Virus record (IMG/VR): IMGVR_UViG_3300025620_000006
Location: 1,175-65,174 of that record
DNA length: 64,000 nucleotides
Source: a virus
Lineage: Duplodnaviria > Caudoviricetes
Reading direction: 5' to 3' (one strand)
The stretch's first letter is position 1. Every line of letters starts with the position of its first letter. The notes beneath the pieces were generated by a model, which was given only the letters and a program-made list of their open reading frames with translations, was not told the DNA's origin and made no database searches. A program made the position numbers and the translations under genes. Of this stretch, positions 10,450 to 52,000 are shown piece after piece.

Positions 10450-12660
10450 TTATTCAATTATTTTTGACATTGTTCCTTTATTATTATATCTTTTAAAACC
10501 AAGATCATAAGTTTTCCTTGTAATTGTAGGTATTGGTCTATATTTATTTTTATTGCAGGCCATTATTGCTAGGCCAGAACTTATAGATGCATCATGTTTT
10601 GTTCTGTTATTTATATTAAATTTAGACCAATCGTTTAATGTTCTTTGAAAGTAAATATCTCCATATGTTCCATTTTGTTTTAAACCTACAAAATCTTCTA
10701 TATATGATTCTATAGCAGCCGCGTGAGCTTGTTTAATATCTTCTGATGAATTAGGTATTCCACCTATCTCTCTTTCTGTAATAGATAGTTTTAATTTATC
10801 CGGTCTATTCATTGCAAAACCTCTATAACCTCTTCTTTTAAAATGATACAGTAATCTAGGTTTATTATTTTCCGCTAATATAGGCATTCCATAAAAAATA
10901 CAAGCCATTAAAACATCTTCAAAAAACATTTCAGCGGTTTGAGGTCTTGCTATATATTCTAAAAAGAAATGATTTGCAGGAGCGTTCTCCATGCTAAACT
11001 TAGTTAGACCATGTAAAGATCCATTAGAACCTCTGCCATCCACTGTTCCTGATATGTCATAAGAGTCACATCCAAAAGCACCCATGTGTTCATTAGCTGG
11101 GTATTTTATACCTCTTTTAATTATAATCTTATTTTGTTGACTAACGTCTGGCACCCATGATAAATAAAATTTACCATTATTTTTAGGTGCAAAAAGAACT
11201 CGTGTATCTTTTATTCCGTTTTCCCAGTAAAAATCTCCTCTTGTTACTAGCTTTGTTTTACCAACATCACCATTGTAATCTATTTGCTCATAAATCTTAG
11301 TTAAATTAAATAACGAAGATTTAGCTTCGTCTCTGAAAGCATGTTCTTCAGTTCTTGGAAATTGTCTATAGAATTCATTTAAAGCGTCTTGATCTTGCTT
11401 TAAACCATCTACTTCATTTTGCCAATATTCTATTACTCCTTGTTTTATTTTTACTCCGTGAGGGTCTTCAATCGGTTTCTTTGGTGTGTCGAATACAGGT
11501 ACGCCATAAGAATCAATGTATCCTTCGTAGTTCCATTCCATAGGTATGAACAAAGAATAGAGTCCGCTGCGAGTCTGTCCATTGGCGTTTCTTTCTGTAA
11601 CATCTGAGTCATAGTATAATTTCTTGAAGTTATCACCTCCTTTGTCTAAAGCATTAGATGTTGAACCCATCATACACTTTCCAATAATTCTACTACCTAA
11701 TCTAAGGGTGGTTTTCGTAACGCGCCAGTTGTTGAGGATGTTGTTCGGCCTTTCCCATTTACCGGATTCATCGTGGACGAGGAGTTTGAGTTTCTCCCCA
11801 TCGTAGGCATTGTCACCCGTGTTCTTCCAATCGATAGTGGTATCGAGTCCCTCAAGATCGGCCGCGGTCTCGTTGGCGATGAGTTTCCTCCTGGTGAATT
11901 TGGACGCTGGTACTCTATAGGCAAGTTCGGTCTTGGGACGGTCCATTCCGTCCTGTATCGGTTTAAAAAAGAACGGATAATTGACCGATATTGGGACGAC
12001 CTTATCAGTGAACATTGTCTTTGCGTCGGCCCCAGATTTGGACAATATTCCGTACCGTGAATCGGAATTAATAGTTGCAAGATTAACCACCTCTCCTGAT
12101 GCCATAAAAGAAAATCCCGATCTACGGTTTTTAAGATAGCACATTCCATAACACCTGATGTCGGCTTTACAAGCTTCCCAGAATATAAAGAATAATCTGT
12201 TTGCTTCCCTAAAGTCTGGTTTCCCAACATCAATTTTGGACCACTGCAAGTACATATAGTGAGTACCAGTAAGGTAAGTAGCCACACTCTTATTATAGAA
12301 CCAAAAACCTTGCTCTCTTCTAGTAAATTCTTTATCAATGTAGTCATACCATTTTTCTTTAAAATCAACTGGGTACTCTTCCCAATCAAAAATTGTTTTG
12401 ATTTTTTTGAAAGCAACTGGTAATGTTTCTCTATTCCATTTGTTGTTTTTAAATTTAACAACATCCTTAGGAACTTCAGGTAATCCTATATATAAATTTT
12501 GTATTTTATATATTTCACCTATTCTTCCTGTTTTAGATATAATAACTATATCATGTTCTTCATTGTAACCATACTCCCACTTATTATACCTATTCATTCT
12601 TTTTAGAACTTTAGGTTTCACGTGGTCTTCAACAACAGTAAAAAGATCTTGCGTATACAT
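10450..12660 (-). CDS. terL: Terminase large subunit
   Basis: Walker A-like KNRRSGFS, Walker B LLVHDESGKW, coupling motif GSTSN, RNase H-like GCDSYD and C-terminal HDASISSGLA. Confidence 0.9.
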   Translation of the reverse strand: MYTQDLFTVVEDHVKPKVLKRMNRYNKWEYGYNEEHDIVIISKTGRIGEIYKIQNLYIGLPEVPKDVVKFKNNKWNRETLPVAFKKIKTIFDWEEYPVDFKEKWYDYIDKEFTRREQGFWFYNKSVATYLTGTHYMYLQWSKIDVGKPDFREANRLFFIFWEACKADIRCYGMCYLKNRRSGFSFMASGEVVNLATINSDSRYGILSKSGADAKTMFTDKVVPISVNYPFFFKPIQDGMDRPKTELAYRVPASKFTRRKLIANETAADLEGLDTTIDWKNTGDNAYDGEKLKLLVHDESGKWERPNNILNNWRVTKTTLRLGSRIIGKCMMGSTSNALDKGGDNFKKLYYDSDVTERNANGQTRSGLYSLFIPMEWNYEGYIDSYGVPVFDTPKKPIEDPHGVKIKQGVIEYWQNEVDGLKQDQDALNEFYRQFPRTEEHAFRDEAKSSLFNLTKIYEQIDYNGDVGKTKLVTRGDFYWENGIKDTRVLFAPKNNGKFYLSWVPDVSQQNKIIIKRGIKYPANEHMGAFGCDSYDISGTVDGRGSNGSLHGLTKFSMENAPANHFFLEYIARPQTAEMFFEDVLMACIFYGMPILAENNKPRLLYHFKRRGYRGFAMNRPDKLKLSITEREIGGIPNSSEDIKQAHAAAIESYIEDFVGLKQNGTYGDIYFQRTLNDWSKFNINNRTKHDASISSGLAIMACNKNKYRPIPTITRKTYDLGFKRYNNKGTMSKIIE
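11697..12347 (-). CDS. Candidate overprinted lipoprotein-like ORF in the +1 frame of terL
   Basis: Stop-free frame of 255 codons; from Met at 12347 a hydrophobic stretch WLLTLLVLTICTCS and a Pro/Arg/Ser/Asn-rich tail; terL is visibly more GC-rich in the overlap. Confidence 0.4.
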   Translation of the reverse strand: MTTLIKNLLEESKVFGSIIRVWLLTLLVLTICTCSGPKLMLGNQTLGKQTDYSLYSGKLVKPTSGVMECAILKTVDRDFLLWHQERWLILQLLIPIHGTEYCPNLGPTQRQCSLIRSSQYRSIIRSFLNRYRTEWTVPRPNLPIEYQRPNSPGGNSSPTRPRPILRDSIPLSIGRTRVTMPTMGRNSNSSSTMNPVNGKGRTTSSTTGALRKPPLD

Positions 12661-19286: not shown

Positions 19287-19543
19287 AAAACAACGACCAC
19301 GTCTGTTGACTTAATAACGTGATATATTTTTTTATTATTCTGTATCTTATGACCAGCATGCTTATCATAAAATATAATATCTTCTTTTTTAACCCCTTCA
19401 ACATCATTACCTAGGCTTATAATTTTAGCCTTTAAGTATCTAATGTCATCTCGGTGTATTTCTGCTAAAAGTAATCCACCATCAGTTTCCTGAATTTGAT
19501 CTTCTAGCTTTTCTATAATTAAATTTCTACCTAGTGCTTTCAT
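19283..19543 (-). CDS. groES: Co-chaperonin GroES
   Basis: MKALGRNLII, ETDGGLLL mobile loop, GNDVEGVKKED; adjacent to groEL. Confidence 0.85.
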   Translation of the reverse strand: MKALGRNLIIEKLEDQIQETDGGLLLAEIHRDDIRYLKAKIISLGNDVEGVKKEDIIFYDKHAGHKIQNNKKIYHVIKSTDVVVVL

Positions 19544-21077
19544 CTATTCTCATATTATTAATTACACAATCAGTAGAAAGAATAGTTGTTGCCACAGAAG
19601 CCGCGTTAATCAAAGCGCTTTTAGTTACGAGCAAAGGATCAATAATCCCTGACTCAACCATATTTACCATTTTTCCTGTAACCACGTTTAATCCAGTACC
19701 ATCATTTTTACTAAAATCCGGTTCTTTAATATTAGCGTTTTTAAGTATAGTTTTAAAAGGTGACTTTATAGCTTCTAATAATACTTGTTGACCTTTTGTT
19801 TTAGGTTTTATTATTGACGAAGCATTTAATAAAGCAATACCACCTCCTGGTACTATACCTTGTTTTATAGCGGCTTTTGTAGCACATATAGCGTCTTCAA
19901 CCCTATCTGTTTTTTCTTTTAATTCTACATCAGAAAAAGCACCTACTTTTACTATAGCCACTTTAGCACTTAATGTAGCTAATCTTCTTTCTAAATTAAC
20001 AACAACGTGTGCAGGGTTTTTCTTTTTTAAATCTTTTTTAATTTTTTCTATAAAATCTTTAGCTTCATCAGGTATTTCTTCTACTTGAATTACTGTTTGA
20101 TTTTCTTGAGAAATTGACTTTACACATTCACCTAAGTAATCTATTTGTATTGCATTTAAATCATCACCTAAATCTTCATTGATTATAGTTGAGTTTGTAA
20201 GTAATGCTAAATCATTTAGTATTTCTTTTTTACGTAAGCCATATGCTGGAGGGTCTACAACGTTTACTTTAATATTACCCTTCATTTTATTCATTACTAA
20301 AGCAGAAAGAACAGTGGGGTCAACTTCGCCTATTACAAGTAGTGGCTTGTTGTTTTTTATTACATGTTCTAGCACAGGTTGTATTTGTCTAATAGATTCT
20401 ACTTTTGATTCCATTATTAAAACTAATGGTTTGTCTAACTCCGCCGTACCTTTTTCTTTGTTAGTTATAAAGTTTTGATGGCAGTAACCTTTGTAGTATT
20501 CTATGCCATCTACTATCTCTGTTTCTGTTATTCCGTTTTCAGAAACACCCAGTGTCACAATCCCTGTTTCACCTACTTCTCTAAAAGCATCGCCTATTAA
20601 CTTACCTAGAACTTTATCGTTGTTGGTTGATATAGTTGCTATATCATCTATCATGTCACCTTTAACGGGTATACTTATTGATTCTAAATATTCAACAACT
20701 TTATCAACAGCTTTGTTTATACCTTCTTTTAGTTCTCTAGTGTTTACGTCCTTACTACGAGCTTCACTTAGTATAGCGTGAGCTAATACAGTAGCTGTAG
20801 TTGTTCCATCGCCAGCTTCATTAACTGTTTTTCTTGCTGCGCCTTTTAACAAAGTTGCACCCATATTTTCAATTGGATCGTGCAATGTTATACAGTTTGC
20901 GACAGTAACACCATCCTTTGTTATGACAGGATTACCCTGGTCATCTTCCATTATAACACATTTACCGCTAGCTCCAAGTGTGGAGCTAACAGCATTTGTG
21001 AGTTGTTCAATTCCTTTAAATATTTTATCTTTAGCTTTGTCTCCAAAACTAAGATTTTTTACTATAGCGTCTGCCAT
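19527..21077 (-). CDS. groEL: Chaperonin GroEL
   Basis: ITKDGVTVA, AGDGTTTATVLA, GIVPGGGIAL and GIIDPLLV motifs; no GGM tail. Confidence 0.95.
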   Translation of the reverse strand: MADAIVKNLSFGDKAKDKIFKGIEQLTNAVSSTLGASGKCVIMEDDQGNPVITKDGVTVANCITLHDPIENMGATLLKGAARKTVNEAGDGTTTATVLAHAILSEARSKDVNTRELKEGINKAVDKVVEYLESISIPVKGDMIDDIATISTNNDKVLGKLIGDAFREVGETGIVTLGVSENGITETEIVDGIEYYKGYCHQNFITNKEKGTAELDKPLVLIMESKVESIRQIQPVLEHVIKNNKPLLVIGEVDPTVLSALVMNKMKGNIKVNVVDPPAYGLRKKEILNDLALLTNSTIINEDLGDDLNAIQIDYLGECVKSISQENQTVIQVEEIPDEAKDFIEKIKKDLKKKNPAHVVVNLERRLATLSAKVAIVKVGAFSDVELKEKTDRVEDAICATKAAIKQGIVPGGGIALLNASSIIKPKTKGQQVLLEAIKSPFKTILKNANIKEPDFSKNDGTGLNVVTGKMVNMVESGIIDPLLVTKSALINAASVATTILSTDCVINNMRIDESTR

Positions 21078-26873: not shown

Positions 26874-27106
26874 TGTTTTTTAAAAAGTTGTTACAAATAT
26901 AGGGGTATGGTGTTGCTACTTTAAATTCTAAAAACTTTTCAAAAAGAAAAATGACTTTTAAATTTGGGGGTCCGCGTCCGTTTTAGAATTTTCAACGTCA
27001 TATATACGACTTTTCAGGGCCCCGAGCGGGGGGTTTAGACTTTTCTACCTAGATTTCATACCTATTATCCTGTCTCGCTCTTCTTTTCCTTGTGAGATTT
27101 AGTTGT

Positions 27107-27213
27107 ATGACACATTGACATGACACATATGACTGATTGTCATGACATTACGTCATATATATAATATACTATTGTTAGTGACATAGTGACATAGTGGTAT
27201 GACATCTTGTCAC
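27107..27213. repeat. Iteron-like TGACA/TGTCA repeat array (putative origin or genome-end region)
   Basis: About ten TGAC(A)/(T)GTCA half-sites, e.g. TGACATCTTGTCA, TGACTGATTGTCA, TGACATTACGTCA, flanking an AT-rich centre. Confidence 0.6.
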
Positions 27214-27234
27214 ATTCTACTACTAAACTATTTT

Positions 27235-27265
27235 ACATACTTAATACGAAGTTATAATGATAATA
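27235..27265 (+). promoter_or_regulatory. Class-1 (early) promoter ACA-N5-AATACGA-N9-GATAATA, copy 1
   Basis: Exact motif and spacing, repeated 7 times upstream of early ORFs. Confidence 0.75.
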
Positions 27266-27284
27266 TAAATGTAACAAACTAACT

Positions 27285-27428
27285 ATGAAACGAATAACTT
27301 ACATACAATCAATAGAATTATTTCTACTAAAAAATCCAGAAGTAATTATACAAAATGTTTTACCTCAATGTATACTTGATGAACTATATTACTTTCAAAG
27401 ATTTCAATATAAGTTATTACAAACATAA
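27285..27428 (+). CDS. Early micro-ORF (47 aa)
   Basis: MKRITYIQSIELFLLKNPEV...; directly after promoter copy 1, AACTATG context. Confidence 0.5.
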   Translation: MKRITYIQSIELFLLKNPEVIIQNVLPQCILDELYYFQRFQYKLLQT

Positions 27429-27727: not shown

Positions 27728-27744
27728 CCACTACTTCTTTACAA

Positions 27745-27847
27745 AACGGTGACTATCCGAACCGAGTAGGCAACAGACTAAACTGGATATTATACAGGCG
27801 CGTTAAGCTGTGTACATCACCTGTCTAAATAATGTTGAAAACAGCAA
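27745..27847 (+). ncRNA. Candidate structured ncRNA upstream of tRNA-like minihelix
   Basis: ORF-free and GC-richer than flanks; stems CGGT/ACCG, CAG/CTG, ATATTAT-ACAGG/CCTGT-ATAATGT. Confidence 0.35.
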
Positions 27848-27893
27848 TGTCACTATGGTATATAAGTGTGTTCGATTCACACTGTGACAACTA
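27848..27893 (+). ncRNA. tRNA-like minihelix (acceptor stem and T-arm only)
   Basis: TGTCAC-tatggtatata-AGTGTG-TTCGATT-CACACT-GTGACA-A-CTA: 12 bp coaxial helix with a canonical T-loop. Confidence 0.6.
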
Positions 27894-27910
27894 ATAACTA
27901 AATTATAACT

Positions 27911-28120
27911 ATGTCAAATTTCAAATTCAGAGGATTTATTCCTGCAGTAACTAAATATGTAAAATCAAAACCACTAGTAGAAGTAGTGGCGGAAGTAATA
28001 GCTTTCGGTTTACTAATGCCATTAGCGTTTGGCGGAATTACTTTCTTCATCTTTATGATGATAACAGGCCAAGTTGATTATTCAGCGATGGATTCTATTA
28101 ACTGTCAAATCTGCTACTAA
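27911..28120 (+). CDS. Small membrane protein
   Basis: 69 aa with a long hydrophobic segment. Confidence 0.65.
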   Translation: MSNFKFRGFIPAVTKYVKSKPLVEVVAEVIAFGLLMPLAFGGITFFIFMMITGQVDYSAMDSINCQICY

Positions 28121-28548
28121 TGAAAAGTTACTACAGCAAACTACAGCAGAGATTTATAGCTCGTGAAGAATACTTTGACGAGCTACTCTTTGGAACTCTC
28201 AATGATGAGAACTACGACAAGCCAATACAAACTAAATACGACTCTAAATCGATAATACAATAAAATACTAACTAATTAAATAATAATATTATGTCTTCAA
28301 AATACTTAAATATATCCTTCAGAATATATGGCAAGCACTTCAACTTGTTAACTAAAGAACAAAAATCTAAAGTTATTGAAATATACTACGACTTTTACTA
28401 AACTAATATAACTATGCAATATATATTAACTTGCCCTAACGGTAAACAGATAGATATGTCAAGCTACATACTACTGCAACTCGAAAGAAAAATAGAAAGA
28501 CAAGAAGTCTTAGAACGTATTAACTACTATAAATCAACTAATAAATAA
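28120..28548 (+). CDS. Three early micro-ORFs (28120-28263, 28291-28401, 28414-28548)
   Basis: 47, 36 and 44 aa; tightly packed with AT-rich start contexts. Confidence 0.5.
28227..28257 (+). promoter_or_regulatory. Class-1 promoter copy 3
   Basis: ACA aacta AATACGA ctctaaatc GATAATA. Confidence 0.75.
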
Positions 28549-28552
28549 TACT

Positions 28553-28795
28553 ATGCAATTTCAAGATACTAAATTCAAAGAGCTAGACGCTCAAGGTCTA
28601 ATTACTGATAAACTAAATCAAATCAAAGAGTTTGAAACTAAATACAAAGCTTGTACTTCAAGTATAGCTATGTACAAATGGTGTACTGACTACGAATATC
28701 GTAAGCGAGAGTGGCAATTCAGACAAGGAATAGCTAATTATGCGCTACATAATGGTCATAAAGCTTTTCAAGGTACAGATAAGTCTATACTGTAA
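28553..28795 (+). CDS. Early hypothetical protein
   Basis: 80-aa ORF. Confidence 0.65.
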   Translation: MQFQDTKFKELDAQGLITDKLNQIKEFETKYKACTSSIAMYKWCTDYEYRKREWQFRQGIANYALHNGHKAFQGTDKSIL

Positions 28796-28796
28796 T

Positions 28797-28827
28797 ACAT
28801 ACAAAATACGATTAACTATTGATAATA
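28797..28827 (+). promoter_or_regulatory. Class-1 promoter copy 4
   Basis: ACA tacaa AATACGA ttaactatt GATAATA. Confidence 0.75.
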
Positions 28828-28841
28828 TAATAAATTAAACT

Positions 28842-29045
28842 ATGCAAAATATAATCAAACAAGTAGACAAAACTACTATCAAATTAAACAACATAACTTA
28901 CAAAGGTTATCCAGTCGGCGAATTACCAAACAGATTTGCCTTCATCTACAATAGCGACAAAGACCAAGAAGGTATTAACTCGTGGTTTAATTACAAAGGC
29001 TTAACTTATATTGAATATAAACCTACAATCTGGTCTTATGTCTAA
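28842..29045 (+). CDS. Early hypothetical protein
   Basis: 67-aa ORF right after promoter copy 4. Confidence 0.65.
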   Translation: MQNIIKQVDKTTIKLNNITYKGYPVGELPNRFAFIYNSDKDQEGINSWFNYKGLTYIEYKPTIWSYV

Positions 29046-29292
29046 TCCAACTACAATGAAAGAACTGTGTCTCTATGCAAAACAGGCGCAACAAAATCGT
29101 GCAAGCGAGCATAGGCGCAAGCACGCACATGACGGCAGGTGTGGTGGGCTCACAGATGCAGAGTACAATCGCGTACAAATTAATGGCAAGAAATCCTATT
29201 CTGCCAAAGCACGAAAGTTCACTCACAACCGTATGTGGAAACATCAATCAAGATATTCAGTAAAACAATTAATAGAAATAGTAAAAACATGA
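29038..29292 (+). CDS. Basic early hypothetical protein
   Basis: Likely start MSNPTT overlapping the upstream stop. Confidence 0.6.
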   Translation: MSNPTTMKELCLYAKQAQQNRASEHRRKHAHDGRCGGLTDAEYNRVQINGKKSYSAKARKFTHNRMWKHQSRYSVKQLIEIVKT

Positions 29293-29558
29293 GTGATACA
29301 ATTAAAAAATGGCACGAAATGCAAGAAAATAAAGAAATAAATCCAGTAGATATTGGATTAATAGCTAAATATATATTCTTACTAGATTTTACAGATGGTA
29401 AAGTATATAGATATGACATTAGCGTGTTATGTACAAAAGAAAATAAATGGAATCCTGATACAGAATCATGTGAGTCGTTTTTATATGGCGCAGGTCACAA
29501 GTTAAATGACTGTGAGTGGATGGTAACTAATAATAAAGGAATAGAATTTGGAAACTAA
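29289..29558 (+). CDS. Early hypothetical protein
   Basis: Likely start MSDTIKKW (ATGA overlap). Confidence 0.6.
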   Translation: MSDTIKKWHEMQENKEINPVDIGLIAKYIFLLDFTDGKVYRYDISVLCTKENKWNPDTESCESFLYGAGHKLNDCEWMVTNNKGIEFGN

Positions 29559-30170
29559 AACAACTAATCCATGGGATTTAGCGTGGTCTAAATGGTGGGT
29601 ACAACAGAACTACAAGAAATGCGAAGTCGATGAAATGACACTAAGCGAAATATATGAACTATTAGAACAAGATTAAATGAGAACACTTAAACTAACAGAA
29701 AACGACTGCACTTTTGTACACTATGTACTACGTATGTACGCTCAGCAAACACCTGGGTTAGATCAAGAAGACAAAGATGAAATACGTGAAGTCGCAGCTA
29801 AATTTAAATAATATGAAAGAATATATAAATAACGAACTAAGTAAACTAGATCGTGGAATAGTAGCTACGCCTACCGAAGAATACCTTGACAGTTTTGCAG
29901 AAGCAAACAACGGAAGTAATGACTTTTTACTAATGCAATTAGCTAAAAACTATGGCTATCAACTAGCTTTACTTAACATTAAAAACAAAATAAATGAGTA
30001 AAATGTCAGAACTAGATTTGATTGCACAAGGTGTAGCAGATCATATGAAAGAAATTATTGAAGACAGTGTTGATTGGCAATTAGCTGACCAACCACTTGA
30101 CGGTGATGAATATATGGAAATGAAAGAATATGTTATTAACTTAGCTTTAAATAAATTGTTAGGTAATTAA
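29548..30170 (+). CDS. Four early micro-ORFs (29548-29676, 29677-29811, 29813-30001, 29994-30170)
   Basis: Abutting or overlapping ORFs of 42-62 aa read from the sequence. Confidence 0.55.
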
Positions 30171-30172
30171 TT

Positions 30173-30203
30173 ACAAAACAAATACGAATATTAATTGATA
30201 ATA
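30173..30203 (+). promoter_or_regulatory. Class-1 promoter copy 5
   Basis: ACA aaaca AATACGA atattaatt GATAATA. Confidence 0.75.
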
Positions 30204-30218
30204 TAATAAACTAAAAAT

Positions 30219-30407
30219 ATGTATTGTAGATGCGGAACAAATATACCACGGTTGCGATTAGATATGGGCTACAAAACCTGTGTTAATTGCTCAACAACCC
30301 AAACGTACAGCTATGTACCAATTATTGAGCATAAAACCGGTAATACAATACAAATCGTCAGTCAAGAAGTAAGTGCATCTGTGCACAGAGCTTGGCGTAG
30401 AAAGTAA
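30219..30407 (+). CDS. DksA/TraR-type C4 zinc-finger protein
   Basis: CRCGTNIPRLRLDMGYKTCVNC matches the C..CG..IP..R......C..C pattern. Confidence 0.6.
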   Translation: MYCRCGTNIPRLRLDMGYKTCVNCSTTQTYSYVPIIEHKTGNTIQIVSQEVSASVHRAWRRK

Positions 30408-30409
30408 GT

Positions 30410-30549
30410 ACAAAGAGTTTTACGGTATATAGCTCTATCTAAATATGAAAACCGACTCCAGCGAATAAATAACAGACCGCGGCGTAAGCAAAGGTAGAAA
30501 ATGTCTGGAATGGCGAAAGATACGATTAGTGATCACACAATAGCCGGTA
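30410..30549 (+). ncRNA. Candidate structured ncRNA
   Basis: ORF-free; stems GAGT..CGGT/ACCG-ACTC and CAGAC/GTCTG. Confidence 0.35.
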
Positions 30550-30638
30550 AACTAGGTATGGATGTAACAGGTGTTATTAAGTTAAACAGAGTTCATTACT
30601 ACGACGGTATGAAGGTTCGATTCCTTCACTAGTTACTA
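30550..30638 (+). ncRNA. tRNA-like element with acceptor stem and T-arm but no canonical D/anticodon arms
   Basis: AACTAG...TGAAGG-TTCGATT-CCTTCA-CTAGTT-A-CTA. Confidence 0.55.
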
Positions 30639-30643
30639 AAAAT

Positions 30644-30838
30644 CTTATAAATGTGAAGGGCTCAGTATGGCTGTAGGAACTCAGCGAAGAGATACGTGGT
30701 TAAGCTGACGAAGATCCTTTAATTTTATAAGTCGTAGTATCACGGGTTGCAGAGTAATTAACTGCATGCACGGTGGAAGTCCGATCGTTGAAGTGGTGAG
30801 GGATCGTTATGAACTCATGGAAACGGAGATAACTACGT
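30644..30838 (+). ncRNA. Candidate two-domain structured ncRNA
   Basis: Domain 1 closed by CTTATAAA/TTTATAAG with GAAGGG/TCCTTT and TCAGC/GCTGA; domain 2 closed by CGTAGT-ATC/GAT-A-ACTACG with TGCAG/CTGCA and CGATC/GATCG. Confidence 0.5.
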
Positions 30839-30841
30839 AAT

Positions 30842-30922
30842 GGGGGTGACTTGGTATTGACGTGATAGAAAGCCTATATGGAACTATTACGGAAGACAGT
30901 TCGAATCTGTCCACCTCCACTA
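30842..30922 (+). ncRNA. Miniature tmRNA-like RNA (tRNA-like domain only, no tag ORF)
   Basis: GGGGGTG/CACCTCC acceptor with G3:U70 and discriminator A; unpaired D-loop ACTTGGTATTGAC; stem GTGATAG/CTATTAC; GGAA linker; T-arm GACAG-TTCGAAT-CTGTC. Confidence 0.75.
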
Positions 30923-30938
30923 AACTTAATTAATTTAG

Positions 30939-31082
30939 ATGAGCAGGACTAGAAAAAAACCATACACTAAATCAAAAAAGTTTGATAAAACCTGTAGAAA
31001 CAACGGAAGTTGCCCTTATTGTAGAGACAACCGTTTGTACAAAAATAAAAAACGAGATACACAAACAAAATACGATAACTAA
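30939..31082 (+). CDS. Small basic Cys-motif protein (47 aa, not in ORF track)
   Basis: MSRTRKKPYTKSKKFDKTCRNNGSCPYCRDNRLYKNKKRDTQTKYDN. Confidence 0.65.
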   Translation: MSRTRKKPYTKSKKFDKTCRNNGSCPYCRDNRLYKNKKRDTQTKYDN

Positions 31083-31091
31083 TGGATAATA
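31061..31091 (+). promoter_or_regulatory. Class-1 promoter copy 6
   Basis: ACA aacaa AATACGA taactaatg GATAATA. Confidence 0.75.
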
Positions 31092-31119
31092 TCAATGTAA
31101 CAAATAAACAATTATAACT

Positions 31120-31560
31120 ATGACAAACCAGTACACATGGCGACAAGAACGTCAAATGCTAGAAGATGCTTACGCACGTAGGCTACTTATCGAGCACAAC
31201 ATCAAGGAAGTAACTACTCAAAGGCAAGCTAAAAACGGCACAAGAGAGTTTGAATTTCCAGTACCTTGCTACTCTAAACAAAGACTAGAGTGGTTTAAGT
31301 ACAAAAAATACAACTTAAAAGATCTACCAAGATTAAGACTAGCTACGTTTGAATCAGGTATGGTTAGAAAACAAAATGGCGGCGATAGAGCTTACCAAAT
31401 CAATCCACAGTATAAGCAAAATCAAAGATATGTGTGGCTTAACAGTGACAATGAAGTTACTGTTAAAGAATTTGTAGGCAACGCTAGAGCATTAATACAC
31501 AATCCACTAACTAGAATGGTGTATATGTTAAATTATTATCTTAAAAACTATAAACAATGA
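31120..31560 (+). CDS. Early hypothetical protein
   Basis: 146-aa ORF after promoter copy 6. Confidence 0.7.
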   Translation: MTNQYTWRQERQMLEDAYARRLLIEHNIKEVTTQRQAKNGTREFEFPVPCYSKQRLEWFKYKKYNLKDLPRLRLATFESGMVRKQNGGDRAYQINPQYKQNQRYVWLNSDNEVTVKEFVGNARALIHNPLTRMVYMLNYYLKNYKQ

Positions 31561-31811
31561 GCAAAAGACTAACAATTTATGAAAGGCTAAAGCCTGAAAT
31601 CAAAGAGGCATTACATTCCTCTGAAAACAACAAGTATTCTGCTTGTGTTGACAGCATAGTAGAAGCATTATCAAGCACTACATTTTATAGTGACTTAAAA
31701 ATTAGCGACATTAGCTCGTTATATACATTTACAAACCTCGAACTAATTAGAATTACAGCGTGGGATTTTAAATACGGTGATAACATTTTAATATCTAAAG
31801 ACTATGAATAA
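31557..31811 (+). CDS. Hypothetical protein
   Basis: 84-aa coupled ORF. Confidence 0.65.
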   Translation: MSKRLTIYERLKPEIKEALHSSENNKYSACVDSIVEALSSTTFYSDLKISDISSLYTFTNLELIRITAWDFKYGDNILISKDYE

Positions 31812-32256
31812 GATACTAACAGAAGAACTAATTGACAAAAGATTAGAAGCACACGGTGTAAAATTTGATATTGAACACGATGAAGCTTTAAAAGTAATAC
31901 AAGATCATTACGATTTCGAGCTAACAGACAACTGGAATCGTACGCCTGACTATAGTATATACACTGAAACTACAGCTGACGGCTATGAAGTGTGGGTTGC
32001 AACATCAGGTGATGGTAGAAACGTATGTATAAATGAAGATGTACATTACTACGAAAACGACTTAAGTGACAGACTGGTTGAGGCTATGACTGACTACAAC
32101 GAGTTAATATATGTAGATGACCTTGAAGCTTATTATGTAGAAGATGCGGTTAGAGAGGTATATGACTCTTATGTAAATGATATGAAAGAAGAAGTAGAAA
32201 ACGAATTAATAGAAGAAGGTTATGAGTACGAAAAAGCAGACGAAACAACAAGTTAA
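31804..32256 (+). CDS. Highly acidic protein (possible nucleic-acid mimic)
   Basis: 150 aa, very rich in D/E/Y. Confidence 0.65.
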   Translation: MNKILTEELIDKRLEAHGVKFDIEHDEALKVIQDHYDFELTDNWNRTPDYSIYTETTADGYEVWVATSGDGRNVCINEDVHYYENDLSDRLVEAMTDYNELIYVDDLEAYYVEDAVREVYDSYVNDMKEEVENELIEEGYEYEKADETTS

Positions 32257-32500
32257 ACAACAAATACCAAAATGGTTCAATGGAGAAATATACACAAAAG
32301 GAGAAACAGTGACAAATCCTTTTTCAAAAGAAGATTTTTATCTAAACGGTTTAGAATTATCCATTTATGATTTTATAATGGGTACACAAGCTGTTTTCGA
32401 AATGGGAGTTGAAAACCAAAGGCTAATAAGTGACTTTCAAAAAGCGTTACGCTGGTTTCAAAAAAATAACATAAACGCCTATATGGTCTTATTAGACTAA
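32222..32500 (+). CDS. Hypothetical protein
   Basis: 92-aa ORF ending AYMVLLD. Confidence 0.65.
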   Translation: MSTKKQTKQQVKQQIPKWFNGEIYTKGETVTNPFSKEDFYLNGLELSIYDFIMGTQAVFEMGVENQRLISDFQKALRWFQKNNINAYMVLLD

Positions 32501-32510
32501 ACTTATACAG

Positions 32511-32600
32511 AGAGAGGTGGCAGATATGCAGAGATATACTTGTCCAACAAAACAACGGCGGGTTTACGTAAACGAAGCAGCTTCGTGGGCACATCTCTCT
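32511..32600 (+). ncRNA. Candidate structured ncRNA upstream of tRNA-Met
   Basis: Closed by AGAGAGGTG/CATCTCTCT; inner TGTCCA/TGGGCA and CGAAG/CTTCG. Confidence 0.45.
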
Positions 32601-32608
32601 CTTAATAT

Positions 32609-32681
32609 TGCGCGGTAGAGCAGTTGGTAGCTCGCTAGCCTCATAAGCTAGAGGTCGGTGGTTCGAATCCACCCTGCGCAC
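32609..32681 (+). tRNA. tRNA-Met (CAT)
   Basis: Cloverleaf: TGCGCGG/CTGCGCA, GAGC/GCTC D-stem, CTAGC-CTCATAA-GCTAG anticodon arm, GGTGG-TTCGAAT-CCACC T-arm; no encoded CCA. Confidence 0.9.
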
Positions 32682-32698
32682 CTAAAATTAAATAAATT

Positions 32699-48580: not shown

Positions 48581-49006
48581 TTATATATTACAATATTCTT
48601 TTTTAGCATCAAAGCATGGGCAGCTTTTAGCCGCAAACTCGTTGTGTCCATGTATCGTAGCTTTTGGATGCATCTTCTTTAATGTTTTTAACAACAGTAG
48701 TAAACTTTTTTTTTGTTCTGGTGTTCTAGTATCTTTAGCAATCCATTTGCCATTAGAGCCTCGTTTTGATTCGACACCTCCAATGTAACAAATTCCTATA
48801 GAACCTTCATTTTCACCTTTAACGTGAGCTCCTTGTTTATATATACTACGACCATACTCTATAATACCATCTAATAAAACTACGTAGTGATAACCTATAC
48901 CATTCCAGCCTCTTTTTAAATGCCACTTGTTTATCTCTGCAGCATCTAAATCTCTACCTTCTTGAGTGGCTGAGCAATGTACTATTATTTTATTTATTGT
49001 TCTCAT
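48581..49006 (-). CDS. Endolysin, N-acetylmuramoyl-L-alanine amidase (T7 lysozyme-like)
   Basis: IIVHCSAT, IGYHY, GAHVKG, SIGICYIGG, GHNEF, KSCPCF zinc-amidase motifs. Confidence 0.92.
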   Translation of the reverse strand: MRTINKIIVHCSATQEGRDLDAAEINKWHLKRGWNGIGYHYVVLLDGIIEYGRSIYKQGAHVKGENEGSIGICYIGGVESKRGSNGKWIAKDTRTPEQKKSLLLLLKTLKKMHPKATIHGHNEFAAKSCPCFDAKKEYCNI

Positions 49007-52000
49007 TCGTTATAAAGTTTATCTAGTTTTTCCATAGCTTTTTCTATAGCACTATCTACTTTTTCCTGAAACTCTTTGTCTTTTTGAAGATCATATTCTA
49101 ACTTTTGAGAATCACTCATGTTATTATATCTTTCTTCTTCTAGTTTTTTAAGTCTTGCTTTTTCTTCAGCTTTTCTTTTTCTAGTTTCTTTAGCTTTTAT
49201 TTTACCTTCTTCTTTTCTACGAACTTTAGCATCTGCTTTTATTAAATCAAACTCTTCTATTTTAGAATTAACATCCCAAGTTCTAAAACCTAGAGCTAAA
49301 GCTACTCTTTGGTATATAGTATTTCTATTGTCAAAAGCTTCTGTGATAGCATTTATTTCAGCAACCATTCTATCCATTGGTATATTAGCAGCTCCAGAAA
49401 CTACACTACCAACAACTTGATAGGATGGGCTTAGTTGAAATCTACCATCAATTGTAACGCTAAATCCTTGTTCAGCTATAACGTCTTTTTCAAACTTCTT
49501 TGTTTGTATAGCAGAATATATTTTTCTTAATTTAGACCCTAACGCTGGAGATAAATTTGCAAGCTCTAACACAGTGTATGTATGATCAGCTGTAAATCCT
49601 TTCTTTTCTTCAAAGTTATATCTTCTTATAGCATTTTTAATTGTAGATATAACAGCTCCACCTACGCCAGAACCTCTTAATATAGTATCTATCATGCCGT
49701 TTACTATTCTATCTTCTTTCTTACTTAATACCTCGCCATATTTTTTTAATTGTTCTTCTTCAGTTAACTCATCATCTGGTTCATCAAAACCAGGTATCAT
49801 AGCAAACAAAGCATTTTGTAATGTTGAGAATATTAAATTCTGAATTATACCATAGTAAGCTATTTTCGATATGTTAGTTTTAGCATCACCTCTACCGTTT
49901 ACTAAATCAAGTCCAGCTTTTTTCATTAACCTCGTGTACTGCATAGGTGTGTTTTGGAAGTTAAGTAAAAACCTACCTAACATACCAGCTTGCTGTTGCG
50001 ATATCATAGAAGGATCTGCCGACTGTTGAGACTCTTCAGATGTTCTAGAAAAATCTTCAAACGCTTTAGTCTCTGCTTCTGTTTGACTTAGCCCTTGTTT
50101 TTTATACGTATTAATTCTGTTTCTATAAAACGTCGCACCACCAGTTGCTATAGCTACACTATCTGCTACTTGAGTAAATACAAAACCGTTTCTTAGTAAT
50201 ATACTTATAAAGGTACTCATTTTGTTTTTAGAACCTTTAACTGCAGCTGCAATTTCAGCTTCATTAATATCACCTTTTAAACCAGCTCTACGTTGTTTTA
50301 ATTTATCAGAATTAAATAACATCACTACATCAGACCAGTATTGATTTTGGTTTGCAAAAGCTTTACCAGCCATAAAAGGATTATTATCAGACCAGTTTAT
50401 GAAGTTAACACTAGATATTAACTGAAGCAAAGCCGATCTTCTGTTAAAAAACATTATAGCTCCTATAGATCTATTTAACCAATTCATCCAAGCGTTTGTT
50501 TGCCTGTCACTACCTTTTGGTCTATTAGTTCCGTTTTTCATTCTCCATATAATATTCTCTAAAGACTCTCTAACTCTAGAACCATATACGGCTTCTATTT
50601 TAGTTAAGTTTTGTTCGCTAAATATTATATCTACATTCTCATTGAACTCAGATAGATACTCTGCTCTATTTACTTTTGTTGTTATAGTATTTAAATCACC
50701 AAGTATTGTTTGGCCTTGCCAATAAGTAGGAGGTTCAACATAAGTATCTTTTTTGGTAATTAAAAGAACTCCATCGGCGAACGATTGTAAGTTAGGATCT
50801 TCTCTTACTATTTTAGTTAGTATGTTTCTATCTCTATTAGATATACCTGGTATTTCAAAATCAGCTTGATCCCACAAGTAAACTCTAACAGCTTCATCAT
50901 AAGTAAATTGTTCACCTGATATTTTACTTCTTAATACTTTTTTAATTTCAGGGAAGTTAGCCATTAAGTTTCTATAATCATTAGACACTCTTTGCTTAGC
51001 AGTCTCTATAGCCGCAACAGCAGAAGTGTAAGGTCTTATTAAGGCTTTGTCGAAAAAGTCTTGATCTATTTCACCTTGCTTACCTTTACCAGCAAACATG
51101 TAAGATGTCAAACCTTTAAAGTCTTCTGCTGATGGTGGTAAAAACAAATTAAATCTTTTCTTATTTTTACCTAACCTTTGAGCTACAACTTGAGAATATC
51201 TAGCCTCTGCTTTAACGCCTTTGTTTCGTTCAATCATTTTATTAAACTCAAAGTCTAAATCTTTTTGAAACTTAACTCTAGCTATTTGAACTCTAGACTT
51301 AACGTCTAATACATCTAAAGCATCTTTAACTGCTTTAACATTTTTAGTAGCGTCATCAGTAAAGTAAAAATCATTATAACCTTCCGCGAATTTATTTATA
51401 ACCCAATCAGCTTTAGCTTGAGCTTTACCGTCAGCTAAACCTGTAATGTTTTGTAAAGGTATATTTAAACCTACCGAAGCTAAAAATTCTTGTATAGGTC
51501 CAGCAGCATCTTGAGGTCTAGCTGTTAATACAAATAAATCTTCTGAACCTCTTGTATCTGCTATTTTTTTAGCAACTTCAAACAAAGGTCCTTTTTTACC
51601 TTCAACTACTTTACTAAACTCTGCAAAATCAAAATTAGCTCCTTCGCTTTCTAACCTAGCAGCATCTGTAGCAAATTCAGTAGCATTTATTCTAGTGCTG
51701 CTACCGTCTGGCATGTTAACTATAACCATACTTTTAGACTGAGCTAGTGTGTCATCAAAATCAAATATTCTAATCTTTTTTATTTTCTTAGAATCCTTAA
51801 GACTTAACCTAGCTTTTTCCATTGCTATATCAGCGTTGTTATTTTTGTCAACAACTTGCTGAGCATTTAAAGCAACACCAGTTGTTCCGTTAGTTGAGTT
51901 ATAAAAGTCTTCAAACTCTTGACCAACAACATCACCACTTTCATAAGACTGTAAACCAAAAGGCATTTTACCTTTTGTAAATATGTTGTAATATCTTTTC

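What the first reader, a model, noticed from the sequence alone, without database searches (positions are those of the whole stretch)
27745..32684. Repeated cassette: structured RNA followed by a tRNA or tRNA mimic, four times, all ending N-CTA
Seen: four T-arm plus acceptor-stem elements (27848-27893 minihelix, 30550-30638, 30842-30922 mini-tmRNA, 32609-32684 tRNA-Met). Each ends discriminator+CTA, and each is immediately preceded by an ORF-free, self-complementary block (27745-27847, 30410-30549, 30644-30838, 32511-32600). Established: RNase P, RNase Z and the CCA-adding enzyme recognise the acceptor/T-arm top half. Inference: the tRNA-like units may be processing punctuation that releases unknown ncRNAs from early transcripts, and/or decoys against host tRNA-targeting defences. 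Together with the mini-tmRNA and the adjacent basic peptide, this may be an undescribed phage RNA system acting on translation.
Basis: partly seen in the sequence, partly recalled or inferred. Interest (0 to 1): 0.85.

Follow-up and report, generated by a model that had tools for sequence, protein, structure and literature searches.

The report
Phage RNA island punctuated by tRNA mimics
A marine phage carries a strip of small folded RNAs separated by a real tRNA and three tRNA look-alikes, one a stripped-down copy of the ribosome-rescue RNA, and many related phages share and reshuffle the same parts.

Summary
The window (a 65-kb IMG/VR podophage related to Flavobacterium and Cellulophaga phages) has four acceptor/T-arm units on the + strand. 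They are a 46-nt minihelix (27848-27893), an 89-nt tRNA-like RNA (30550-30638), an 81-nt tmRNA reduced to its tRNA-like domain (30842-30922, Rfam 60.6 bits) and tRNA-Met (32609-32684).

Relatives confirm all of them. The minihelix has 23 distinct copies, with double-sided changes at 11 of 12 pairs. There are 59 distinct TLD-only tmRNA mimics: 55 keep G3:U70 and 58 keep A73.

The preceding blocks are real too. They consist of conserved modules closed by covarying stems, and the modules are reshuffled between relatives. No Rfam family matches them.

The N-CTA end is conserved (53 of 59 mimics) but is not phage-specific. In one Flavobacteriaceae genome, 20 of 20 tRNA genes also carry C, rarely CCA, after the discriminator.

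Best reading: polycistronic early transcripts are cut by the host's tRNA-processing enzymes at the tRNA-like units. This releases stable small RNAs, and the tmRNA mimic probably interferes with ribosome rescue.

Processing and function are inferred, not shown. A TLD-only phage tmRNA was already known (phage DS6A). The minihelix, the modules and their shared inserts appear undescribed.

The parts
27243..27266 (+). Promoter-like repeat AATACGA-N9-GATAATAT. Further copies with at most 1 mismatch lie at 27427, 28235, 28805, 30181, 31069 and 33158. They probably mark the starts of the early transcription units that carry the RNA blocks.
   Evidence: 18 matches with up to 3 mismatches against 5.05 expected (0 of 100 shuffles reach 18). 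The 7 best all lie on the + strand between 27243 and 33181. Promoter function is inferred.
27748..27847 (+). Block A. An outer stem (27748-27752 with 27817-27821) encloses module H (stem 27754-27758 with 27785-27789, conserved GAACC and AACT beside it) and a second hairpin. A small hairpin at 27833-27847 ends 1 nt before the minihelix.
   Evidence: Fold. Module H recurs upstream of minihelices or tRNA-like units in relatives. Over 7 distinct copies its 6-bp stem is 100% paired, with three pair types at two positions. The window's own copy has 5 of 6 pairs and was not among those 7.
27848..27893 (+). tRNA minihelix: 6-bp acceptor stem, an 11-nt linker with a D-loop-like GG, a 5-bp T stem with loop TTCGATT, discriminator A, then CTA.
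   Evidence: 53.6 bits, the only credible match in the window. A model built from 23 copies finds 35 matches in 33 of 92 related loci.
30414..30455 (+). Module Y: a conserved sequence block whose structure is not established.
   Evidence: 88-100% identical over 23-44 aligned nt in 17 loci. There is too little variation to test pairing.
30456..30510 (+). Module Z: a closing stem (30456-30461 with 30505-30510), a conserved core beginning GCGAATAAATA, and a variable hairpin that here carries a GUAA tetraloop.
   Evidence: 24 distinct copies; closing stem 85.4% paired against 67.9% with shuffled partners (0 of 1000 shuffles reach it). In relatives Z sits 2-6 nt before a tmRNA mimic.
30512..30545 (+). 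Module V: a conserved block that ends 4 nt before the tRNA-like RNA.
   Evidence: 89-100% identical in 9 loci. Structure not tested.
30550..30638 (+). tRNA-like RNA 'E2': acceptor AACTAG/CTAGTT, a GG-containing D-loop mimic, a variable insert where a tRNA would have its D and anticodon arms, T arm, discriminator A, then CTA. ARAGORN and Rfam do not call it.
   Evidence: 11 distinct copies of 54-109 nt. The T stem covaries, the acceptor is invariant, the discriminator is A in 11 of 11, and the trailer is CAA in 7 and CTA in 4.
30645..30730 (+). Module U: three stacked helices around conserved loops.
   Evidence: 8 sequences, 26 predicted pairs, 9 with compensatory changes. Three unrelated versions of the closing stem occur. 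Five invariant G-U pairs make the fold specific to the + strand.
30732..30838 (+). Module T: a closing stem, a conserved hairpin, a conserved junction containing GGAAGTCCGA, and a variable third hairpin. The third hairpin carries a portable 22-nt submotif at 30795-30816. T ends 3 nt before the tmRNA mimic.
   Evidence: 7 sequences, 19 pairs, 4 compensatory. The submotif recurs inside other scaffolds in relatives.
30842..30922 (+). TLD-only tmRNA mimic: G1-C72, G2-C71, G3:U70, A73, a tmRNA-type D-loop analogue, a short helix 2 capped by a small hairpin, and a T arm. It has no tag reading frame and no pseudoknots, and it is followed by CTA.
   Evidence: 60.6 bits. Fold z = -3.16. 59 distinct relatives. 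Its 5' and 3' parts resemble the tmRNA of a Flavobacteriaceae genome.
30939..31082 (+). ORF for a 47-aa basic peptide with three cysteines, 16 nt behind the tmRNA mimic.
   Evidence: No Pfam or PHROG match. 10 unnamed relatives in the large protein collection. A 74%-identical unannotated copy lies 15 nt behind a tRNA-Met inside the 22-tRNA cluster of Aeromonas phage AhSzw-1.
32509..32602 (+). Block D: a long closing stem around a conserved interior, ending 6 nt before tRNA-Met. It is an insertion relative to L005 and L006.
   Evidence: Fold z = -3.48. It is absent where the tRNA follows the ORF directly. In L046, L071 and L085 it lies between a tmRNA mimic and tRNA-Met, and its closing stem carries compensatory A-U to G-C changes.
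32609..32684 (+). tRNA-Met (anticodon CAT), discriminator C, followed by CTA.
   Evidence: 66.9 bits.

Best explanation
This is a non-coding RNA island in the early region of a marine podophage that probably infects Flavobacteriia. Phage promoters drive polycistronic transcripts in which small ORFs are followed by composite structured RNAs: Y-Z-V, U-T, block A and block D. Each composite ends 1-7 nt before a tRNA-shaped unit.

The tRNA-shaped units offer the acceptor/T-arm coaxial helix that host RNase P (5' side), RNase Z (after the discriminator) and the CCA-adding enzyme recognise. Cutting at these units would release the tRNA-like RNAs and also the flanking structured RNAs, whose closing stems would shield their new ends.

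The released tRNA mimics are likely active themselves. The TLD-only tmRNA keeps the alanine identity set (G3:U70, A73) and a host-like SmpB-facing loop, but it has no tag template. It is expected to compete with host tmRNA for SmpB, AlaRS and EF-Tu and so blunt or divert trans-translation. The minihelix and E2 would occupy other enzymes that read the top half of tRNA.

Shown here: the units and modules exist, are conserved, covary, are specific to the + strand and are recombined as modules.
Inferred: transcription, cleavage sites, CCA addition, charging, SmpB binding and any effect on the host.
For: (1) Real tRNA-like units.
- Rfam tmRNA 60.6 bits and tRNA 66.9 bits.
- Minihelix: 23 distinct copies, 89.1% of cells paired, 11 of 12 pairs changed on both sides, 0 of 500 shuffles as high. 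35 model matches in 33 of 92 related loci.
- TLD mimics: 59 distinct. G3:U70 in 55 (A-U in 4). Pair 4:69 is A-U in 14, G-C in 18, C-G in 26 and G-U in 1. Discriminator A in 58.
- E2: 11 distinct copies with a covarying T stem.

(2) Real upstream modules.
- U has 9 of 26 pairs compensatory; T has 4 of 19.
- Closing stems of Z are 85.4% paired against 67.9% shuffled; the H stem is 100% paired.
- Block D's stem has compensatory changes.
- The invariant G-U pairs in U would be A-C mismatches on the other strand.

(3) The RNA units are more conserved than neighbouring ORFs in the same loci. In L006, modules are 94-100% identical and ORFs 70-78%. In L020, the tmRNA mimic is 97.6% and ORFs 72-75%.

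(4) Adjacency is the rule. In relatives the DNA just upstream of tmRNA mimics and minihelices is almost always another conserved non-coding module. A crude classifier recognised Z, T, X1 or a preceding tRNA-like unit in 26 of 67 contexts. Reading the other 41 shows further recurring non-coding blocks; only the L020/L022 type follows an ORF directly.

(5) The 3' context is tRNA-gene-like. CTA follows 53 of 59 TLD mimics and 21 of 23 minihelices. In a Flavobacteriaceae genome, 20 of 20 scanned tRNA genes have C after the discriminator but only 3 have CCA. Its tmRNA gene ends A-CTT.

(6) The window's mimic resembles that genome's tmRNA at both ends.

(7) Hudson et al. 2014 (PMC4131195, passages read) report a TLD-only tmRNA in phage DS6A. 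They cite Mao et al. 2009 for a similar molecule that strongly inhibits tmRNA, perhaps by titrating SmpB.

(8) tRNA-like 't-elements' direct RNase P and RNase Z cuts that form mRNA ends in plant mitochondria (PMC1920247, passages read).

(9) That RNase P, RNase Z, CCA-adding enzyme, AlaRS and EF-Tu accept acceptor/T-arm minihelices is recalled textbook enzymology and was not checked in a call.
Against: No RNA ends were seen. The four RNA runs are assembled contigs of relatives 90-99% alike. They show presence in RNA libraries but neither transcription direction nor processing.

Single-sequence folds of three of the four blocks are no better than shuffles.

Punctuation is incomplete. Y-Z-V and U-T have no tRNA-like unit between their modules, so tRNA enzymes alone cannot separate every module.

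Most modules are so conserved (90-100%) that covariation rests on few independent variants: 7-8 sequences for U and T, and none for Y and V. Relatedness inflates shuffle statistics.

The host is inferred from phage relatives and from one metagenome-assembled genome labelled Flavobacteriaceae. The host-rule control rests on that one genome (20 tRNAs).

The window encodes no RNA-processing or CCA-adding enzyme among the 27 ORFs scanned, so everything depends on host enzymes.

Four of the 59 TLD mimics have lost G3:U70, so alanylation cannot be essential for all of them.
Confidence: 0.55

Rival explanations
1. Decoy or sponge array. The tRNA-like units and the inserted hairpins exist mainly to titrate host factors: tRNA-targeting defence nucleases or nucleotidyltransferases, SmpB, or modification enzymes. 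Release of neighbouring RNAs is incidental. This overlaps the best explanation and differs only in what is selected for.
For: The top half of tRNA is kept under strong constraint even where nothing decodable remains. The minihelix acceptor (first four pairs UGAC/GUCA plus A73 in many copies) equals that of the phage tRNA-Gln in relatives. Relatives 76-79 nt long with the same acceptor carry a loop that reads like a UUG anticodon loop (my reading). The same insert hairpins are displayed on different scaffolds: 20 of 51 X1 inserts share a 14-mer with a TLD insert.
Against: No defence system, target or binding partner is identified. No test was possible. It does not explain why structured modules without any tRNA likeness are so regularly placed just upstream.
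Confidence: 0.2
2. New self-cleaving ribozymes or other catalytic RNAs. The closed modules with conserved internal loops cut themselves out, as HDV-like theta ribozymes do next to phage tRNAs.
For: There are compact modules with invariant junction sequences and freely variable peripheral hairpins, directly abutting tRNA-like units. Ribozymes beside phage tRNAs are on record (PMC10879173, seen only as a search listing and abstract start).
Against: No hammerhead, twister, pistol, hatchet, HDV or other Rfam family matches at E up to 10 in the window region or E up to 5 in three related loci. The tRNA-like units already supply cleavage signals.
Confidence: 0.08
3. A decaying tRNA gene cluster: the odd units are tRNA pseudogenes and the blocks are neutral spacers.
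For: Phage tRNA clusters are common. Relatives carry tRNA-Gln or tRNA-Gly at corresponding places. Intermediate 76-79-nt forms exist.
Against: Pseudogenes would not keep 89% pairing with double-sided changes at 11 of 12 pairs. They would not keep G3:U70 in 55 of 59 copies. They would not stay more conserved than the adjacent ORFs.
Confidence: 0.05
4. DNA-level or cis-regulatory elements: small mobile DNA repeats, recombination sites, an origin, or 5'-UTR regulators of the next ORF.
For: Modules are reshuffled between relatives, with break points at module borders. RNA-run contigs join 30507 to 30840, and 30836 back to 30512. Block D is an insertion.
Against: The helices contain invariant G-U pairs, so they form only in the + strand transcript. 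Modules are followed by tRNA-like units rather than by start codons. No terminal repeats or target duplications were noticed, though I did not search for them systematically.
Confidence: 0.05

Closest known systems
TLD-only tmRNA of mycobacteriophage DS6A (tmRNA Website entry; Hudson, Lau and Williams 2014, PMC4131195; also PMC11915505)
   Same: A phage-encoded tmRNA reduced to little more than the tRNA-like domain, with no tag reading frame. According to those papers a similar molecule inhibits endogenous tmRNA.
   Different: It belongs to an unrelated phage group and host phylum. Here it forms a family of at least 59 distinct sequences in three acceptor subtypes. Many copies carry 20-90-nt inserted hairpins in helix 2. 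It is embedded in an array with other tRNA mimics, and its gene ends CTA. No sequence match to any isolate phage was found.
Plant mitochondrial t-elements and the tRNA punctuation of organellar transcripts (PMC1920247)
   Same: Non-decoding acceptor/T-arm structures inside long transcripts act as RNase P and RNase Z signals that create the ends of neighbouring RNAs. Those authors found them by the same T-arm motif search.
   Different: There the released neighbours are mRNAs and the ends were mapped. Here the neighbours are structured non-coding modules in a phage and the ends are unmapped.
Engineered tRNA scaffold for recombinant RNA (Ponchon and Dardel; PMC3753655)
   Same: A foreign hairpin inserted in place of the anticodon arm of a tRNA-shaped carrier is processed and protected like a tRNA. 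The TLD mimics and E2 carry variable inserts at the equivalent place.
   Different: That is a laboratory device. Natural use by a phage is my inference.
Small stable RNAs (species 1 and 2, rnaC/rnaD) in the T4 tRNA gene cluster (recalled; no paper on it was read, and the search returned none)
   Same: Phage non-coding RNAs of unknown function are co-transcribed with tRNAs and matured by tRNA-processing enzymes.
   Different: T4 has two such RNAs, not a modular recombining set, and no tmRNA mimic.
Bacterial and phage Y RNA-like RNAs (YrlA, RF02553; PMC4201824, seen as listing and abstract start only)
   Same: Non-coding RNAs with a domain that mimics the tRNA acceptor, T and D arms.
   Different: No YrlA match in the window. 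There was only a 23-bit sub-threshold hit on a true tRNA in L007. No Ro60/Rsr gene was seen among the ORFs scanned.

Membership tests
tmRNA (Rfam RF00023) | tRNA-like domain: 7-bp acceptor stem with G3:U70, discriminator A, T arm, D-loop analogue | tested here: met
   both ends of the model align, 60.6 bits against a cut-off of 47. G3:U70 and A73 are present in the window copy and in 55 and 58 of 59 relatives.
tmRNA (Rfam RF00023) | mRNA-like domain with resume codon and tag reading frame, flanked by pseudoknots | tested here: not met
   304 of 374 model positions are replaced by 11 nt, and the whole RNA is 81 nt. It is therefore not filed as a functional tmRNA, only as a TLD-only derivative.
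tmRNA, permuted two-piece form (RF04321) | Acceptor 3' half encoded upstream of the 5' half, with a coding piece between them | tested here: not met
   The TLD is contiguous and in standard order. The permuted model gave only a 24-bit sub-threshold hit in L007 and none in the window.
TLD-only phage tmRNA (DS6A type) | Phage gene consisting of little more than the TLD | tested here: met
   Described for DS6A in PMC4131195.
TLD-only phage tmRNA (DS6A type) | Inhibits host trans-translation or binds SmpB | not testable with these tools
   Needs SmpB binding, AlaRS charging and a reporter assay.
tRNA (RF00005) | Cloverleaf with anticodon arm | tested here: met
   Met only for 32609-32681. For the minihelix and E2 it is not met: ARAGORN and Rfam do not call them, and neither has an anticodon arm.
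t-element-type processing signal (tRNA punctuation) | Acceptor stem stacked on a T arm with the conserved T loop, inside a longer transcript | tested here: met
   The promoter-like repeats lie upstream of the ORFs that precede the blocks.
t-element-type processing signal (tRNA punctuation) | RNA ends coincide with the borders of the element; non-templated C/CCA at its 3' end | not testable with these tools
   Only contigs of RNA runs could be laid, and these cannot show ends.
Known self-cleaving ribozymes and riboswitches (Rfam 15) | Match to a curated covariance model | tested here: not met
   apart from tRNA and tmRNA there were only chance-level hits.
Y RNA-like (YrlA) | Ro-binding stem plus tRNA-like domain; match to RF02553 | tested here: not met

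The most novel reading that the evidence does not exclude
These phages run a natural 'RNA display' system. A shared pool of small hairpin motifs, many capped by GNRA tetraloops, is grafted interchangeably onto several stable carriers: the tmRNA-like domain, the E2 tRNA mimic, and the closed scaffolds X1, Z and T. The array is transcribed early and cut into units by the host's tRNA-processing enzymes. The carriers give stability and, for the tmRNA mimic, access to SmpB, EF-Tu and the ribosome. The inserts would be the variable, fast-exchanging active parts, for example decoys for host defence or RNA-binding proteins. This would be a combinatorial non-coding counterpart of protein anti-defence islands, and a natural precedent for the engineered tRNA scaffold.
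Probability: 0.25. Interest if true: 0.9.

Novelty: new variant of a known kind. Interest (0 to 1): 0.75.

Why it matters
If the reading is right, three things follow.

(1) tRNA-shaped punctuation is known from organelles and is used in engineered guide-RNA arrays. A widespread group of marine phages would be using it to make a set of small structured RNAs.

(2) Phage interference with ribosome rescue through a tag-less tmRNA mimic would be far more common and diverse than the single DS6A example. I found 59 distinct sequences, including copies on GC-rich contigs and on a 208-kb contig.

(3) At least eight RNA modules match no Rfam family (H, Y, Z, V, U, T and D in the window; X1 and others in relatives). 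They become candidates for new RNA-protein or RNA-RNA recognition motifs. One of them, X1, occurs on 74 viral contigs.

The predictions are concrete (exact cleavage sites, CCA addition, SmpB and AlaRS binding) and can be tested with ordinary biochemistry.

A caveat on novelty: a 2023 catalogue of 8,495 candidate structured RNAs from IMG/VR (PMC10690425) may already list some of these motifs in supplementary tables that I could not open.

Tried and rejected
- Single-sequence folding as evidence for the blocks: rejected. Three of the four blocks fold no better than shuffles.
- Known RNA families: Rfam at gathering score and at lax E-values gave only tRNA and tmRNA, plus chance hits (miRNA-like hits at 27099-27215; a 22.7-bit 'Plastid-ycf2' hit on the minus strand of the minihelix).
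- Two-piece or permuted tmRNA, with the upstream blocks as the coding piece: rejected (one search shows standard order).
- N-CTA as a phage-specific signal or as a functional non-CCA end: set aside after the host control.
- Alternative 5' end of E2 at 30524: rejected.
- Isolate phages: blastn of the tmRNA mimic and of E2 against 50,697 phage records gave no match and one chance match. The tmRNA model found nothing above cut-off in MW202828.1 or in an elemo phage. The minihelix model found nothing in those two or in AhSzw-1 (that tool notes that an empty answer shows little).
- RNA evidence: four marine RNA runs hold relatives of the region, but only as contigs. Depth differences between bins, uncovered parts and 'loose ends' cannot be read as expression or processing. 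The joints there reflect other module orders in relatives.
- Flanking proteins: no Pfam or PHROG family for the 9 small ORFs around the blocks. No RNA-processing enzyme among 10 larger ORFs.
- The GroEL search for a host genome returned mostly phage-like contigs binned into genomes of assorted labels. I used only the one labelled Flavobacteriaceae.
- Literature: 'mini-tmRNA' returns 0 papers. Searches on tRNA-like, minihelix and phage terms and on structured RNA, phage and tRNA adjacency returned nothing describing these RNAs. A search for the T4 stable RNAs returned no primary paper. Supplements of PMC10690425 are closed and may bear on novelty.

Full report
WHAT THE WINDOW IS

The window is bases 1175-65174 of a 65,174-base IMG/VR virus record, rated complete by CheckV. 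G+C is about 34%. It encodes:
- a P22-like portal, 39-49% identical to portals of Flavobacterium, Cellulophaga, Tenacibaculum and Maribacter phages (87 records);
- a GroEL, a primase-helicase and a ribonucleotide reductase;
- a 3,237-aa protein with no PHROG match.

The finding lies at the start of the rightward gene block, just after a divergent intergenic region. Seven copies of a promoter-like repeat (AATACGA-N9-GATAATAT, at most one mismatch) lie on the + strand between 27243 and 33181 (18 matches at up to 3 mismatches against 5.05 expected). The + strand ORFs leave three non-coding gaps: 27728-27910, 30408-30938 and 32501-32698.

THE FOUR tRNA-SHAPED UNITS

ARAGORN finds only tRNA-Met. 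Rfam adds an 81-nt match to tmRNA at 30842-30922 (60.6 bits, cut-off 47). In that match both ends of the model align and 304 internal positions are replaced by 11 nt.

A simple scan for an acceptor stem stacked on a T arm finds exactly the four claimed units, plus one weak hit, in the whole window. All four are followed by discriminator plus CTA.

Minihelix
- In relatives the minihelix is a family. 23 distinct copies align with 89.1% of cells paired. 11 of 12 pairs change on both sides, and 0 of 500 shuffles reach any of the five measures.
- Three of the 23 rows were misaligned at the 5' end and were left in, which lowers the figures.
- The seventh acceptor pair is usually unpaired.
- A GG in the linker is nearly invariant, where a D loop would touch the T loop (that interpretation is mine).
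- A covariance model built from these copies finds one credible match in the window (53.6 bits) and 35 matches in 33 of 92 related loci.

tmRNA mimic
- There are 59 distinct relatives of 65-149 nt.
- G1-C72 and G2-C71 occur in all 59. G3:U70 occurs in 55 (A-U in 4).
- Pair 4:69 is A-U in 14, G-C in 18, C-G in 26 and G-U in 1.
- The discriminator is A in 58. The trailer is CTA in 53.
- The two subtypes that start GGGAG and GGGCG reach only about 37 bits with the Rfam model.

E2 (30550-30638)
- There are 11 distinct strict copies of 54-109 nt. The acceptor is invariant and the T stem covaries.
- A variable insert sits between the GG loop and a conserved stretch before the T arm. This is the topology of a tmRNA TLD, but with C3-G70 in place of G3:U70.

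THE BLOCKS IN FRONT OF THE UNITS

Folding the window's own sequence gives no support for three of the four blocks. Relatives do.

I fetched relatives in three ways:
- 9 syntenic loci through the 146-aa ORF at 31120-31560;
- 14 loci through a tmRNA-mimic pattern, of which 12 reach the Rfam tmRNA cut-off as 78-83-nt matches;
- further loci through module motifs.

The intergenic regions resolve into recurring modules, each closed by a stem.

Block B = Y (30414-30455) + Z (30456-30510) + V (30512-30545).
Block C = U (30645-30730) + T (30732-30838).

- U: 8 sequences, 26 predicted pairs, 9 compensatory. Three unrelated versions of the closing stem occur. Five invariant G-U pairs make the fold specific to the + strand.
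- T: 7 sequences, 19 pairs, 4 compensatory.
- Z: 24 distinct copies; closing stem 85.4% paired against 67.9% with shuffled partners, 0 of 1000 shuffles as high.
- Block A contains module H. Its stem is 100% paired in 7 distinct copies, with three pair types at two positions (the window's own copy has 5 of 6 pairs and was not counted).
- Block D recurs between a tmRNA mimic and tRNA-Met in three loci, with A-U to G-C exchanges in its long stem. It is absent from L005 and L006.
- Y and V are conserved (88-100% identity in 17 and 9 loci) but vary too little to test.

A module that is not in the window, X1, occurs on 74 viral contigs. Among 57 distinct copies its closing stem is 91.2% paired (80.2% shuffled). 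The base of its variable hairpin, which ranges from 8 to 140 nt, is 93.5% paired against 53.8% shuffled.

None of these modules matches an Rfam family.

HOW THE PARTS SIT TOGETHER

In the window the last paired base of each upstream structure lies 1-7 nt before position +1 of the tRNA-shaped unit (one search read). E2 sits between V and U, and T sits 3 nt before the tmRNA mimic.

In relatives, Z lies 2-6 nt before tmRNA mimics of all subtypes. In L002 a tRNA-Gln starts at the base after the mimic's CTA.

Module order differs from locus to locus. Contigs from RNA runs show further orders: 30507 joined to 30840 with five letters between, and 30836 joined back to 30512.

At nucleotide level the RNA units are more conserved than their neighbouring ORFs in the same loci. 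In L006, modules are 94-100% identical and ORFs 70-78%. In L015 and L020, the mimic is 96-98% and ORFs 71-75%.

The variable hairpins are drawn from a common pool:
- 20 of 51 X1 inserts share a 14-mer with an insert of a tmRNA mimic, and 15 of 51 the other way;
- 3 of 7 T inserts share one with a mimic;
- the 22-nt submotif at 30795-30816 of the window's T module recurs in a mimic, in X1 and on its own.

THE CTA

CTA follows 53 of 59 mimics, 21 of 23 minihelices (2 CAA) and 4 of 11 E2 copies (7 CAA). The background frequency of CTA is 1.85%.

As a control I took a genome whose record title says Flavobacteriaceae, reached through a phage-like GroEL contig. Of its 20 distinct tRNA genes that pass a strict scan, all 20 have C after the discriminator: CAA 7, CTA 3, CCA 3, CTT 3, others 4. 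Its tmRNA gene ends A-CTT.

So 'C, then not C, then A' looks like the local convention for tRNA genes that do not encode CCA, and the phage follows it closely. I take this as a sign that the units are matured like host tRNAs, not as a new signal.

That CCA blocks RNase Z while other trailers do not is recalled knowledge and was not checked in a call.

The control rests on one genome.

MECHANISM

The best-supported account has three steps.
1. Early polycistronic transcripts are cut at the tRNA-shaped units by RNase P and RNase Z.
2. CCA is then added.
3. Both the mimics and the flanking closed RNAs are released.

The tmRNA mimic keeps what AlaRS needs (G3:U70, A73; recalled identity rules). Its 5' loop and 3' arm resemble the tmRNA of the Flavobacteriaceae genome. 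It has no template.

Hudson et al. describe the DS6A molecule in the same terms. They cite an experiment in which a similar molecule strongly inhibited tmRNA, perhaps by titrating SmpB. The 2025 database paper repeats this.

Plant mitochondrial t-elements are the precedent for non-decoding tRNA shapes that set the ends of neighbouring RNAs.

The engineered tRNA scaffold is the precedent for hairpins carried in place of an anticodon arm.

Nothing here shows transcription, cleavage, charging or binding.

WHAT SPEAKS AGAINST THIS READING
- No ends were mapped.
- There is no punctuation between Y, Z and V or between U and T.
- U and T rest on few independent variants, and Y and V on none.
- The host is inferred.
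- Four mimics lack G3:U70.
- The shuffle controls ignore relatedness.

THE NEIGHBOURING PEPTIDE

The 47-aa basic, three-cysteine ORF at 30939-31082 has no family and 10 unnamed relatives. A 74%-identical unannotated copy lies 15 nt behind a tRNA-Met inside the 22-tRNA cluster of the T5-like Aeromonas phage AhSzw-1. This second, independent association with tRNA genes is suggestive and was not followed further.

NOVELTY

The TLD-only tmRNA is a new and much larger set of members of a known kind.

I found no description of the minihelix, E2, the closed modules or the shared inserts. I checked Rfam 15, 50,697 phage records and the literature searches I ran.

VERDICT
- The function remains open.

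Noticed in passing
window 27099-27215: A dense set of inverted TGTCAT/ATGACA repeats in the divergent intergenic region between the leftward and rightward gene blocks. They surfaced as chance miRNA-like Rfam hits. This may be an origin or an operator region.
   Followed up: no
window 27243, 27427, 28235, 28805, 30181, 31069, 33158 (+ strand): A repeated promoter-like element, AATACGA-N9-GATAATAT, lies in front of early ORFs. A longer version (31061-31127) recurs several times in each related locus.
   Followed up: partly
window 30939-31082; L203 4001-4114: A 47-aa basic cysteine-containing peptide is conserved at 74% identity in the T5-like Aeromonas phage AhSzw-1. There it is unannotated and lies 15 nt after a tRNA-Met inside a 22-tRNA cluster.
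   Followed up: partly
loci L172-L201 of genome G004: In a genome labelled Flavobacteriaceae, all 20 strictly scanned tRNA genes encode C after the discriminator but only 3 encode CCA. Its tmRNA gene ends A-CTT. This looks like a lineage-wide 3'-end convention worth checking in more genomes.
   Followed up: partly
L004 2527-2605 and 2961-3036; L006 111-189; L023 about 10779-10857: tRNA-like RNAs of 76-79 nt share the minihelix acceptor and lack a D stem. The L004 2527-2605, L006 and L023 copies carry a 7-nt loop that reads like a UUG (Gln) anticodon loop. They may be intermediates between a tRNA-Gln and the minihelix (my reading).
   Followed up: no
relatives, e.g. L023 12927-13030, L008 7350-7440: Module X1 has a closing stem, a conserved internal loop with AGUA opposite GAA (loop-E-like in my reading) and a hairpin of 8-140 nt. 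It occurs on 74 viral contigs. Further recurring modules lie upstream of tmRNA mimics, for example one that begins GGCGGCATACTGGTCA.
   Followed up: partly
L012 2110-2190, L014 303-380, L148 (two copies): TLD-only tmRNA mimics also occur on contigs of other kinds: two G+C-rich contigs of 52 and 118 kb, and a 208-kb contig with two copies about 25 nt apart. The trait is therefore not confined to this phage group.
   Followed up: no
window 19527-21077 (-); L163-L168: Relatives of the phage GroEL (56-68% identity) lie on contigs binned into genomes labelled Woesearchaeota, Aureispira, Gammaproteobacteria, Bacteroidetes, Saprospiraceae and Flavobacteriaceae. These are most likely phage contigs mis-binned into those genomes.
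   Followed up: no
window 49003-58716 (-): A 3,237-aa ORF with no PHROG match. Its size recalls the virion-packaged giant proteins of N4-like and crAss-like phages (recalled, not tested).
   Followed up: no
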